Below are positions 366 to 3,481 of a stretch of 64,000 nt of DNA, piece after piece. The position numbers and the translations under genes are program-made. The notes beneath the pieces were generated by a model, which was not told the origin of the DNA, did not search any database, and worked only from the letters and a program-made list of their open reading frames with translations. Origin of the DNA: Candidatus Freyarchaeum deiterrae (GTDB lineage Archaea > Asgardarchaeota > Jordiarchaeia > Jordiarchaeales > Jordiarchaeaceae); contig CP147778.1 of assembly GCA_037305845.1 (NCBI GenBank), positions 480,001 through 544,000 of the forward strand, read 5' to 3'. The first letter of the stretch is position 1; each line of letters starts with the position of its first letter.

Positions 366-3071
366 TTAGATTGGGAAGGCTGTTTTTATTTCTTCGTAGA
401 GTTCTGGGAAGCTGTTCAGCCATTCTTTTCTTTCTTTTTTGAGTTGTTGGACCATTTTTTCGACTTGTTCGGTGCTGTAGTATTTTTCTAGTTTGAACTT
501 GTCCATGTCGACGCCTTCGACTTCTTTGGGTGCGAGTGTTCCGAAGTGGGGTTCGGGTATCCATTCTATGTTGTTTCGAGCTATGCCTCTTATTATGGAG
601 GCCATTTCTTTTATTTGGATGCGGTCCACTTTTCTTTTGACTATGCTTACGCCTTCCTCGTTTGTTTCTCTTAGTTCTCCTATTCCTCCGGTGTTTACCA
701 GGTAGCAGTGTACTTTGTCGCCGAATTCTTTTATCATGTCGTAGAACTTGTTTCCTTCTAGTCCTTTGTTGCCTACTATGAAGGGGTTGGTTCCCACTTC
801 TCTTACTGATTGTCCGGCTCTTTTGGGGTCGCTTCCCGAGGTTTCTATTGATTCTCCCAGCATGAATGCTGCTGCGGCTTGTTCGATTGTGAGTTTGGAT
901 GCTACGGGTACCACGGTGTTTCTTCTGGTTATTATGAGGAGTATTAGTCCGTCGACTTCGTTTAATGGGGGTAAGTTGACTGTAGGGCTTTTGTATTTTC
1001 CGAAGTCGTCTCTCTGCATTATTCCGCGGCCGTTGCCGGTCAGTATGTCGCTTTCGAATAGTACGTTTCCTTTGTAGTCCACCATCACGTTTTCGAGTAT
1101 AGCGTCGGGTTTGGTTATGGCGTTGTAGATTAGTGGCTGTATTTCCGGGTTTACACCTTCTGTCTTTAGGTAGAATCCTCGCTCAGTGCCTATGGCTGAT
1201 CCGTCGGGTCGTAGTGCGACGAAGTCGTCCTGTACTATTTCTATGCCTTCTCCGTCTGCTTCGTTCAAGTCGTGGGTGTGGCAGCTATGGGTGGTTTTTC
1301 CGGTTGCAGTGAGTCCGAAGATTAGTGTGCTGTAGGTTTTTATTTCGCCAGTTTGGGCGTCTCTGGCTCTGATTTTTTTAGCGCCGGCGTGCAGCCCGAG
1401 CATACCCTGCTGCTTCGCAAACCACATCGCCATTCTCAGGAAGCCTTTCTTAGCTTCACCATAATAATCAGACCCAAGGACGAAGGTTACTCCTATTTCG
1501 GGGAGTACTATTATTTGCCTGTCTTTTTCCTGCCACTCTGGAATATATACTATGAATAGGTGGGGACCATTATAGTCGTCTAGGGGGTCGAAGAGGGTTT
1601 GGTTAACCATGTGAGCTAGCCTAATCATTTCTCCTCTGTGGACAGAGACTAGGAGGGTGCATTTCGGTGTGAAGTCGGGGTTGCCTCCCATAGTGCGTTC
1701 GGTGCATATGAAGGGTGCGCTTTTAATATACTGGAGTATATCTTTCATTGTTTCAGGTAGGTCTTTCATGAGTTCTTTCTGTTTGGGGCTCATTTCGTAC
1801 TGAATCACTTCGGGGCTGCCCGCGGTTATGGTTAAGCCCGCGCTCCTGTTTTTAACTGTGGAGACGAAATTGTAGTTGTTGAAGATTGTTTTAGTCCCGT
1901 ATGCTTCCGCCATCTTTCGGATTTTTTCGTGGGTAAGATGTTTGACGTTGGTTCTCTCGTGGAGATTCTCTACTTCCTGTCTTATCTCTTCCATGTTTAG
2001 CTGGGCGATAATCTCATCAATTTCGGCTTTCGCTCTCTGCTTTTCTTCCTGTAGTGGTTCGAGGTACTCTTTGGAGGTAATTATCCGCCTGACTTCTTTT
2101 TGCATATCTAAAAGAGGGTAGGCTACGTTCAGGTAGTAAACGGCTGCGAATTTGAAAATGTTTTTGTAAAAATCAATCTGGAGTTTTTCACGCTTTTCGC
2201 TACGTATAAGTAGGTAGGGGTTGAAGAAGGGTTGCGGAGAATGGGTGAGTATATCTATAGCTTCTTGTGGATTCAGGCGTTTAGCTATCCTCGCCTCCTT
2301 GCGATTATTCACAAGCAGGAAAATGAGTTTGATACGTGTGGTGTCAAGATACCTTTCATTTCCGCCTATCCACCAAGGATCAAGCATAAAGTGGTTGTCT
2401 TCTTTTTTGCTCTTCTCGTAGAGCGGTTGGAGTCGGGCATAGATTTTTATGAGGTCTCTTTTAAGATAGAATTTTCTCTCGGAGACGGATGTGGATATGC
2501 GTCCTTTCTCTCCTCCGAGCTGTTCGACGTATATTATATCGTCGGAGTGTATTCGCGCACGCTCCAGCTCTAGGAGTAGAAACGCGTTGGTGCTGACGCC
2601 TCTTCCTGTTTCTCCCATTATGGCTATTCCTTCCCCGTTGATGTCCACTAGGCTTCCCCTGATAAAATTTAAACGCTCCTGCTCCTCACTGACATCAGCC
2701 ACGATGCCCAGAGCTAGGGCTCGTACAAATTCGTAATTGTCAACATTAAAAAGTATACCAGTTTTGGTTTCAGAGTTATAGTATATTCCGGGGTTTTCAT
2801 CGTAAACTCCCGTGGCTGCGTATATCACCCCGTGGGGGCGCAGATTTCGTTCTATAGACGCGGGAAACCAGTTCTCTCTCCAAAAATCATCCAGATGGCT
2901 TTCATTAGTTCTCAGCTGTATAATGTAGCCGTTTATGTTAGCGTTCCAAACATAGAGAGAATCATATCCCAGATATCTCTCCGCCTTTTGAACCAAGTCT
3001 TCCCTTGTTTCCCGAGAGATTCCTACGTCTATATTGCCTTCCTTTTTCGGAATCTTTTCTAATTCGCCCAT
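366..3071 (-). CDS. pckA: ATP-dependent phosphoenolpyruvate carboxykinase with an extra N-terminal PEPCK/HPrK-like P-loop domain
   Basis: C-terminal part has YYGEAKKG, LGLHAG, FGLTATGKTT, IVQDD, NGRG, LVNTG motifs of PEPCK-ATP; first ~340 aa repeat the fold with degenerate GETGRGVST/IHSDD. Confidence 0.8.
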   Translation of the reverse strand: MGELEKIPKKEGNIDVGISRETREDLVQKAERYLGYDSLYVWNANINGYIIQLRTNESHLDDFWRENWFPASIERNLRPHGVIYAATGVYDENPGIYYNSETKTGILFNVDNYEFVRALALGIVADVSEEQERLNFIRGSLVDINGEGIAIMGETGRGVSTNAFLLLELERARIHSDDIIYVEQLGGEKGRISTSVSERKFYLKRDLIKIYARLQPLYEKSKKEDNHFMLDPWWIGGNERYLDTTRIKLIFLLVNNRKEARIAKRLNPQEAIDILTHSPQPFFNPYLLIRSEKREKLQIDFYKNIFKFAAVYYLNVAYPLLDMQKEVRRIITSKEYLEPLQEEKQRAKAEIDEIIAQLNMEEIRQEVENLHERTNVKHLTHEKIRKMAEAYGTKTIFNNYNFVSTVKNRSAGLTITAGSPEVIQYEMSPKQKELMKDLPETMKDILQYIKSAPFICTERTMGGNPDFTPKCTLLVSVHRGEMIRLAHMVNQTLFDPLDDYNGPHLFIVYIPEWQEKDRQIIVLPEIGVTFVLGSDYYGEAKKGFLRMAMWFAKQQGMLGLHAGAKKIRARDAQTGEIKTYSTLIFGLTATGKTTHSCHTHDLNEADGEGIEIVQDDFVALRPDGSAIGTERGFYLKTEGVNPEIQPLIYNAITKPDAILENVMVDYKGNVLFESDILTGNGRGIMQRDDFGKYKSPTVNLPPLNEVDGLILLIITRRNTVVPVASKLTIEQAAAAFMLGESIETSGSDPKRAGQSVREVGTNPFIVGNKGLEGNKFYDMIKEFGDKVHCYLVNTGGIGELRETNEEGVSIVKRKVDRIQIKEMASIIRGIARNNIEWIPEPHFGTLAPKEVEGVDMDKFKLEKYYSTEQVEKMVQQLKKERKEWLNSFPELYEEIKTAFPI

Positions 3072-3300
3072 TCTCCTTTCACCAAATTATGTCAAGTCCA
3101 ACCCGTTCGAAATCTACGAGATTTTTTTTAGAAATTAACTAGTTTACTCCTTTTTATACGTTTTCATTAACTCTATTTACTCATAGAACGCCCTTTGACA
3201 GTCTTGCATAAAAAAATGCTTTTCCCATCGATTTCATTCAATTATAAAGGCTTTTCATCCGAGAGAGGAAATTTATAACGCTTAATGCGCATTTAATACT

Positions 3301-3389
3301 AGTCCTTGCAAAAATTTATCCAGTGACCTTTTGGGGATGATGCTGGAAGAGCCGTATGACCGCTTTCGGGATGATTTGCAAAAAGGACT
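3301..3389 (+). ncRNA. box C/D-type guide sRNA with permuted box order (D-C-guide-D'-C')
   Basis: TTTATAA at 3272; terminal stem AGTCCTT-GCAAA/TTTGC-AAGGACT; two kink-turn modules GTGA-cct/ggg-GATGATG and ATGA-ccg/cgg-GATGATT; guide GGAAGAGCCG 3345-3354. Confidence 0.75.
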
Positions 3390-3411
3390 CCTCACATAGA
3401 GGGTTTCTTTT
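3390..3411 (+). terminator. short hairpin plus U-tract after the sRNA
   Basis: CCTC-acata-GAGG followed by GTTTCTTTT. Confidence 0.4.
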
Positions 3412-3481
3412 ATCAAAAGTTCTTAAGGGTACATAATGATTATTAATTAATAACTCAACCTAATCCATTTTTAAAGACCTT

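What the first reader, a model, noticed from the sequence alone, without database searches (positions are those of the whole stretch)
3301..3389. Circularly permuted box C/D guide RNA aimed at the 23S peptidyl-transferase centre
Seen: own TATA box, terminal stem, and two K-turn modules in the order D(GTGA 3323)-hairpin-C(ATGATG 3337)-guide-D'(ATGA 3356)-hairpin-C'(GATGATT 3370). The RNA ends therefore fall inside the second guide rather than outside C and D. Knowledge (from memory): archaeal/eukaryotic LSU rRNA contains GAUGUCGGCUCUUCC, to which GGAAGAGCCG is a perfect 10-nt complement. The +5 rule gives the C equivalent to E. coli C2510, which I recall as the site guided by eukaryotic U49/SNORD49. 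Inference: an unusual-topology archaeal counterpart of a eukaryotic snoRNA that standard C/D scanners would miss.
Basis: partly seen in the sequence, partly recalled or inferred. Interest (0 to 1): 0.8.

Follow-up and report, generated by a model that had tools for sequence, protein, structure and literature searches.

The report
Rearranged guide RNA with splice-site frame
In one genus of Asgard archaea, a small RNA that aims a sugar methylation at the ribosome's catalytic centre is encoded with its parts in rotated order inside what looks like a tRNA splice site, so it is probably cut out and closed into a ring; I found no published guide RNA gene built this way.

Summary
Real. Window 3301-3402 is a stand-alone box C/D guide RNA gene of an Asgard archaeon, with a TATA box, a covarying closing stem and a terminator-like hairpin. 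It is conserved in seven relatives' sequences. Its intact guide pairs 10/10, uniquely, with the host's 23S; the +5 rule gives C2510.

The box order D-C-D'-C', with the RNA ends inside the second spacer, is confirmed and restricted to this genus among 379 genomes. Elsewhere the same guide sits in ordinary sRNAs (other Asgard, Nitrososphaeria, published M. kandleri MKAsR7), so the target is not new.

Cutting by the host's two-subunit tRNA endonuclease and ligation by RtcB would give a 65-68 nt circle with near-canonical 12 and 12-14 nt spacers, like the permuted SRP RNA of Thermoproteus (about 55%). The central helix prefers 5-6 bp, and no RNA data were found. The second spacer has no conserved target.

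The scan earlier noted splice-framed C/D RNAs on other DNA, and a reader of an overlapping window proposed this same mechanism (unchecked notes).

The parts
3265..3278 (+). BRE (purine run) and TATA box TTTATAA; predicts a start at about A3301, the first base of the stem
   Evidence: Sequence; TTTAT is invariant at the same spacing in 5 genomes. Start site inferred from archaeal promoter spacing.
3301..3307 (+). Outer helix h, 5' strand (pairs with 3383-3389)
   Evidence: 7 bp in 7/7 full-length homologues, compensatory changes at 2 pairs
3308..3311 (+). Central 4-bp helix H, 5' strand GCAA (pairs with 3376-3379)
   Evidence: Invariant in 7/7; pairing probability 0.78-1.0
3312..3314 (+). 5' bulge/loop; predicted cut between 3313 and 3314
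   Evidence: AAA in 3 homologues, AAU in 4; cut site inferred from the EndA rule (after the 2nd bulge base)
3314..3322 (+). 3' half of the split second spacer; no conserved target; can pair with the 5' half of the intact guide or with the C' region
   Evidence: Variable in length and sequence; no rRNA target; pairing with the guide -6.1 to -9.2 kcal/mol against about -20 for the target
3323..3342 (+). K-loop 1: D-type box GTGA 3323-3326, short C-G hairpin, C-type box GATGATG 3336-3342
   Evidence: GTGA, the C-G stem and ATGAT invariant in 8/8; L7Ae binding inferred
3344..3355 (+). Intact 12-nt guide; 3345-3354 pair with 23S (G000:1839445-1839454); G3351 marks C2510
   Evidence: invariant in 8/8 except the unpaired -1 base
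3356..3377 (+). K-loop 2: D-type box ATGA 3356-3359, CCG/CGG hairpin, C-type box GATGATTT 3370-3377
   Evidence: Boxes and CC/GG invariant in 8/8; third pair G-C versus A-U
3376..3382 (+). Central helix 3' strand TTGC and invariant 3-nt bulge AAA; predicted cut between 3381 and 3382. TTGCAA becomes the 5' half of the rejoined spacer.
   Evidence: Invariant in 8/8
3383..3389 (+). Outer helix h, 3' strand
3390..3413 (+). Conserved hairpin CCTC/GAGG followed by a T-rich run; likely terminator. 3376-3402 also resembles the genus CRISPR repeat.
3314..3381 (+). Predicted mature 68-nt circular RNA (65-68 nt in homologues)
   Evidence: Computed from the splice rule; not observed

Best explanation
A stand-alone, circularly permuted box C/D sRNA gene. 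(1) Transcribed from its own promoter as a precursor of about 105-110 nt (inferred). (2) Its ends fold into an hBH splice motif: 7-bp outer helix, AAA bulge, 4-bp central helix, then a loop (fold shown computationally, conserved). (3) The host's two-subunit tRNA splicing endonuclease cuts both sides and RtcB closes 3314-3381 into a 68-nt ring, joining the halves of the second spacer and freeing the C' box from the central helix (inferred). (4) The ring carries two K-loops joined by spacers of 12 and 12-14 nt, binds L7Ae, Nop5 and fibrillarin, and directs 2'-O-methylation of 23S C2510 by the +5 rule (pairing shown, methylation inferred). The second spacer is an orphan that keeps the RNP geometry. 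The guide function alone I put at about 0.9; the confidence given is for the whole chain including splicing.
For: Unique 10/10 pairing over positions -2 to -11. Conservation and covariation. AAA bulge invariant in 8/8 and GCAA/TTGC in 7/7 while the outer helix varies. In shuffled sequence, 14 of 2552 closing stems, or 14 of 103 bulged ones, have this 3-nt 3'-strand bulge followed by 4 bp. The predicted join restores a 12-14 nt spacer, close to the 12 nt of the intact one. The host encodes two EndA subunits, RtcB, L7Ae-family proteins, Nop5 and fibrillarin. Asgard EndA is two-subunit with the loop that allows relaxed motifs (PMC5829648), and hBH counts as a canonical class (bioRxiv 10.64898/2026.10.13.758758). 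Host tRNA introns use bulges such as AAA, GGA, UAA and ACA (read). The Pab1020-type ligase that circularises ordinary sRNAs was not found in this single-contig genome. Precedent: the permuted SRP RNA of Thermoproteus (PMC4731332).
Against: In the free RNA the central helix prefers 5-6 bp: the outer U-A pair takes the 4-bp register about 20% of the time, and a fifth A-U pair forms 54-86% of the time. The inner helix starts with a mismatch in all homologues, so there is no full BHB. The 5' A-run varies in length. The central helix is invariant, so it gives no covariation. The eight sequences are close kin (79% identity). The rejoined spacer has no target, so nothing shows that joining is needed. 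Published C/D sRNA ends usually lack a BHB (PMC7994747).
Confidence: 0.55

Rival explanations
1. Permuted but unspliced. The linear RNA works as it is: the bulged stem only holds the ends together, and the 9-12 unpaired bases before GTGA act as the second spacer. Same target, no circle.
For: The 5-6 bp register dominates. The 5' strand is long enough to bridge C' to D without ligation. The second spacer is an orphan. About 14% of bulged stems look like this by chance.
Against: The bulge length is invariant in 8/8. The helix starts at the C' box's own 3' bases, which should crowd protein assembly (inference). The host carries many intron-interrupted RNAs.
Confidence: 0.3
2. Nested single-guide hairpin. 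Box 3337 pairs with box 3356 around the guide as a loop, and box 3323 pairs with box 3371 as an outer K-turn; there is no real permutation.
For: CC and GG can pair in either combination. The outer K-turn would have invariant U-G, U-A and G-C pairs. Some minimum-energy folds are nested. Minimal one-guide snoRNAs work in Drosophila (cited in PMC7994747).
Against: The third pair of hairpin 2 changes G-C to A-U locally. The two loops are not consistently complementary. A 13-nt loop is tight for a 10-bp duplex. The consensus fold gives two local hairpins.
Confidence: 0.08
3. Not a methylation guide in effect: an antisense or chaperone RNA, or a self-inhibited relic, because the 5' strand pairs with the guide up to the -5 base.
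For: The 5' strand pairs with the guide over up to 9 bp in 8/8 sequences. Boxes are non-consensus (GTGA, ATGA).
Against: Target pairing is about -20 against -6 to -9 kcal/mol. The D-to-guide register is identical to that in canonical homologues and MKAsR7. No other guide of this form for the site was seen in the genome.
Confidence: 0.07

Closest known systems
M. kandleri MKAsR7 (Dennis 2015, PMC4644070 supplement) and canonical Asgard/Nitrososphaeria sRNAs with the same guide
   Same: Same guide core and D-box register for 23S C2510
   Different: Those run C-D'-C'-D, often with a short terminal stem, and have an intact second guide (for G2446 in MKAsR7 and several Asgard families). Here the order is rotated, the ends lie inside the spacer, and the second guide is an orphan.
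Permuted SRP RNA of Thermoproteus tenax (Plagens 2015, PMC4731332)
   Same: Own promoter, rotated gene, leader and trailer forming a splice motif, two-subunit EndA plus RtcB proposed to close the ring
   Different: Different RNA class. Cleavage and circles were shown experimentally there; here they are only predicted, and it is not shown that joining is needed.
Box C/D RNA in the euryarchaeal pre-tRNA-Trp intron (sR50; reviewed in PMC7994747; circles in PMC9014305)
   Same: A C/D guide released and circularised by EndA and RtcB
   Different: That one lies inside a tRNA and targets tRNA. Here there is no tRNA, and the junction falls inside a spacer (intron box order outside the junction is from my memory).
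Circular C/D sRNAs made by the ATP-dependent ligase Rnl (PMC9014305)
   Same: Circular mature form of 60-70 nt
   Different: Canonical genes, variable junctions at the termini, no splice motif. The Pab1020-type ligase was not found here.
Pyrobaculum sR56/sR57 'circular permutation' (Lui 2018, PMC6009581)
   Same: Rotation of a C/D sRNA, proposed to arise by circularisation and re-insertion
   Different: There the D and D' guides swap places, and both families were catalogued as ordinary C/D sRNAs; no break inside a guide is described.
Human SNORD49A/B (28S Cm4456, PMC9941101)
   Same: Equivalent target nucleotide (equivalence from my own knowledge of numbering)
   Different: No hit with Rfam RF00277; homology not shown

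Membership tests
Archaeal box C/D sRNA | Two C-type and two D-type boxes able to form K-turn/K-loops | tested here: met
   Four boxes with C-G stems conserved in 8/8; the D boxes are variants GTGA and ATGA
Archaeal box C/D sRNA | Linear order C-D'-C'-D with ends outside C and D | tested here: not met
   Order is D-C-D'-C'; canonical geometry arises only in the predicted circle
Archaeal box C/D sRNA | About 12-nt spacer with about 10-nt antisense match obeying the +5 rule | tested here: met
   12-nt spacer, 10/10 unique match, C2510
Archaeal box C/D sRNA | Second functional guide | tested here: not met
   No conserved rRNA match, split or rejoined; the +5 base varies among A, G and U. tRNA targets were not searched systematically because the tRNA set is intron-rich and incomplete. 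Orphan guides are common (28% in Pyrobaculum).
Archaeal box C/D sRNA | Host encodes L7Ae, Nop5 and fibrillarin | tested here: met
Archaeal box C/D sRNA | Expression, L7Ae binding, methylation of the target | not testable with these tools
   No RNA holder listed; bench work needed
EndA substrate (BHB class) | hBH: outer helix, 3-nt bulge, 4-bp central helix | tested here: met
   7/7 full-length homologues; the 4-bp register is a minor conformer, about 20% for the outer pair
EndA substrate (BHB class) | Strict hBHBh' with an inner helix right after the second bulge | tested here: not met
   The first inner pair is a U-U or C-U mismatch in all, followed by 2 to 6 pairs (read)
EndA substrate (BHB class) | Host enzyme of the relaxed, two-subunit type, and RtcB | tested here: met
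   Two paralogues and RtcB; relaxed specificity taken from PMC5829648; I did not check the specific loop by alignment
EndA substrate (BHB class) | Actual cleavage and a fixed circular junction | not testable with these tools
   Needs an in vitro assay or small-RNA-seq
SNORD49 (RF00277) | Match to the family model | tested here: not met
   0 matches at E up to 10
CRISPR repeat-derived RNA | Repeat copy with the ATTGAAAG handle flanking a spacer | tested here: not met
   3376-3402 matches 22/28 to a relative's repeat and 19/28 to the host's own, but there is no handle and the upstream copy is only 9-10 nt

The most novel reading that the evidence does not exclude
[quoted passage not shown] It may be a fixed trace of a circular sRNA re-entering the genome, with a frame possibly borrowed from a CRISPR repeat.
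Probability: 0.45. Interest if true: 0.72.

Novelty: new variant of a known kind. Interest (0 to 1): 0.58.

Why it matters
How archaeal C/D sRNAs are circularised and how their genes move are open questions (PMC7994747, PMC6009581). This gene would be a case of defined, splicing-dependent circularisation with the junction inside a spacer. It would add C/D sRNAs to tRNA, SRP RNA and rRNA as RNAs found in permuted form, and tie rRNA modification to the tRNA splicing machinery in an Asgard lineage. Even unspliced, it would show that the archaeal methylation RNP tolerates two closed K-loops and a helix in one spacer, a design testable in vitro. It also shows a class of gene that C-to-D scanners miss. 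Limits: one locus in one genus, and the target site is already known.

Tried and rejected
Rfam: no family at gathering or useful E-value; the weak sR41 and sR23 hits are chance.

Sequencing runs: no RNA holder listed, and nothing was laid from 4 runs. This is not evidence either way.

Target for the second spacer, split or rejoined: best matches are weak and differ between species. A 6-nt remnant of the G2446 guide is possible in this genome but is not conserved.

More permuted sRNAs: none in this genome, none in the sister family by covariance model, and none in 379 genomes with a strict guide-free pattern. That pattern needs G/C stems and a 12-nt spacer, so looser forms could be missed.

Absence in G003: the neighbouring PEPCK gene was also not found there, so this is probably an assembly gap.

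A separate G2446 guide in the order: not found.

One search used a mis-indexed structure and is void; one search replaces it.

Literature searches found no permuted or split-guide C/D sRNA. Searches were weak, because 'C/D' cannot be searched as a term and the library is incomplete.

Origin from a CRISPR spacer insertion was considered: the flanks do not fit a repeat-spacer-repeat unit, so it is kept only as an aside.

Full report
Setting. The element lies in a non-coding gap between a divergent PEPCK gene (366-3071, minus) and a convergent small gene followed by an HflX-like GTPase. The genome is one contig of 3,576,204 bases with 40.7% GC. It is an Asgard archaeon: a same-phylum genome gave the same hit, on a contig of the same length, as a record titled Helarchaeota. 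From memory the size fits Ca. Freyarchaeum deiterrae; I did not verify this.

Observation. The host 23S contains the target once. The guide pairs at positions -2 to -11, against a next best score of 6 in 23S and 8 in 16S. The +5 base is the equivalent of E. coli C2510. The bare box order is not rare by itself: 0.5 per shuffled genome against 1 observed. The element is, however, conserved in 4 of 5 other genomes of the genus and in 2 further full and 1 partial metagenome sequences. The PEPCK or HflX neighbour is kept, while the genes directly downstream vary. The fifth genome also lacks the PEPCK neighbour. TATA spacing, all four boxes, the guide and the C-G stems of both hairpins are conserved. 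The closing stem is fully paired with compensatory changes (100% of 93 cells; 2 of 500 shuffles as high, though kin inflate this). A hairpin and T-run follow, so the transcript is probably about 105-110 nt.

The permutation is real and local. The same guide sits in ordinary C-D'-C'-D RNAs in at least five other Asgard families and in Nitrososphaeria, sometimes as the D guide and sometimes as the D' guide. It also occurs in the published, expressed M. kandleri MKAsR7. In MKAsR7 and several Asgard families its partner guide aims at G2446. None of these has the rotated order. A guide-free pattern for two consecutive K-loops found only this locus in 379 genomes, with one control hit. Other sRNA candidates in this genome are canonical. 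So an archaeal guide for the SNORD49 site is known, and the layout is what is new. SNORD49 guides Cm4456; the equivalence to C2510 is from my knowledge, and the family model does not hit.

The closing stem reads as a 7-bp outer helix, an AAA bulge on the 3' strand and a 4-bp central helix (GCAA/UUGC), followed on the 5' strand by AAA or AAU. This is the hBH form of the archaeal splice motif, counted as canonical in a recent census of Asgard tRNA introns. The bulge and central helix are invariant while the outer helix varies. Among shuffled closing stems, 0.5% have this shape, or 14% of those with any bulge followed by 4 bp. Cutting after the second base of each bulge and ligating gives a 68-nt ring (65-68 nt in homologues). 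In the ring the broken spacer becomes 12-14 nt, beside the 12 nt of the intact one. The central helix uses the last bases of the C' box, so splicing would also free that K-loop (inference). The host has both EndA subunits, RtcB, L7Ae-family proteins, Nop5 and fibrillarin. Asgard EndA is reported to be of the relaxed type. The ligase known to circularise ordinary sRNAs was not found. The closest precedent is the permuted SRP RNA of Thermoproteus.

Evidence against splicing. The A-runs let the central helix grow to 5-6 bp, and the 4-bp register is a minor form. The inner helix begins with a mismatch. The sequences are close kin. The second spacer has no conserved target, so nothing proves that it must be joined. 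I put splicing at about 0.55, a working linear RNA at 0.3, a nested single-guide fold at 0.08 and no methylation at 0.07.

The second spacer. Its conserved part (UCCAG plus pyrimidines) can pair with the 5' half of the intact guide at -6 to -9 kcal/mol, well short of the -20 of the target duplex. It probably extends K-loop 1 and shields the guide until the target arrives (inference). In this genome it contains UUAUCC, which matches the core of the G2446 guide seen in relatives, and no separate G2446 guide was found in the order. This fits descent from an MKAsR7-like dual guide that was circularised, reopened inside the G2446 guide and fixed in the genome. That history is weakly supported; under it the boxes should be renamed D', C', D, C.

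An unexplained resemblance. The covariance model rang weakly on CRISPR arrays. Bases 3376-3402 match a relative's repeat at 22 of 28; outside arrays only two sites in this genome score 22 (one is this element) and one scores 25. The match to the host's own repeat is 19 of 28, which about 140 sites reach. The comparison was made after the fact and the repeat handle is absent. It may reflect origin from a repeat, or convergence on a palindromic TTGCAA unit followed by a hairpin.

Earlier notes. I reached the splice reading before consulting the scan's notes. A reader of an overlapping window proposed the same for this stretch, and two follow-ups on other DNA describe splice-framed stand-alone C/D RNAs. 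These are unchecked AI notes, not independent support.

Verdict. A genuine guide RNA gene with a layout I could not find described, probably matured by tRNA-type splicing. New variant of a known kind; interest 0.58.

Noticed in passing
window 3376-3402: Resembles the genus CRISPR repeat (22/28 to a relative's repeat, 19/28 to the host's). The repeat's own 5' TTGCAAAA unit is palindromic, so neighbouring repeats could form a similar bulged helix. Two Cas6 genes are present.
   Followed up: partly
G000:C1:1244690-1244750 (-): Canonical C-D'-C'-D sRNA candidate with two 16S matches (scores 10 and 8), apparently on both strands of helix 34
   Followed up: partly
G000:C1:1804895-1806540: The 16S gene carries two short inserts, one in the 5' domain and one near the 3' end, that look like BHB-type introns
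   Followed up: no
L023-L040, L046, L050: Other Asgard families carry a canonical dual-guide sRNA for 23S G2446 and C2510, like M. kandleri MKAsR7
   Followed up: partly
L061, L089, L092, L105, L127, L131, L144, L149, L158: Nitrososphaeria (and one Thermoproteota MAG) have a conserved canonical sRNA with the C2510 guide in the D' position and a second guide of unknown target
   Followed up: no
L184, L191, L199: Metagenome sRNAs with the C2510 guide and a long GC-rich terminal stem, but only GAGA where a D box is expected
   Followed up: no
window 366-3071 (-): 901-aa PEPCK whose first 430 or so residues have no Pfam match; in two sister-family genomes the best match to this part is a separate protein of about 325 aa
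   Followed up: no
G000 tRNA genes, e.g. C1:1729295-1729446: Most tRNA genes are interrupted, some by several introns; only 9 are found without intron search
   Followed up: no
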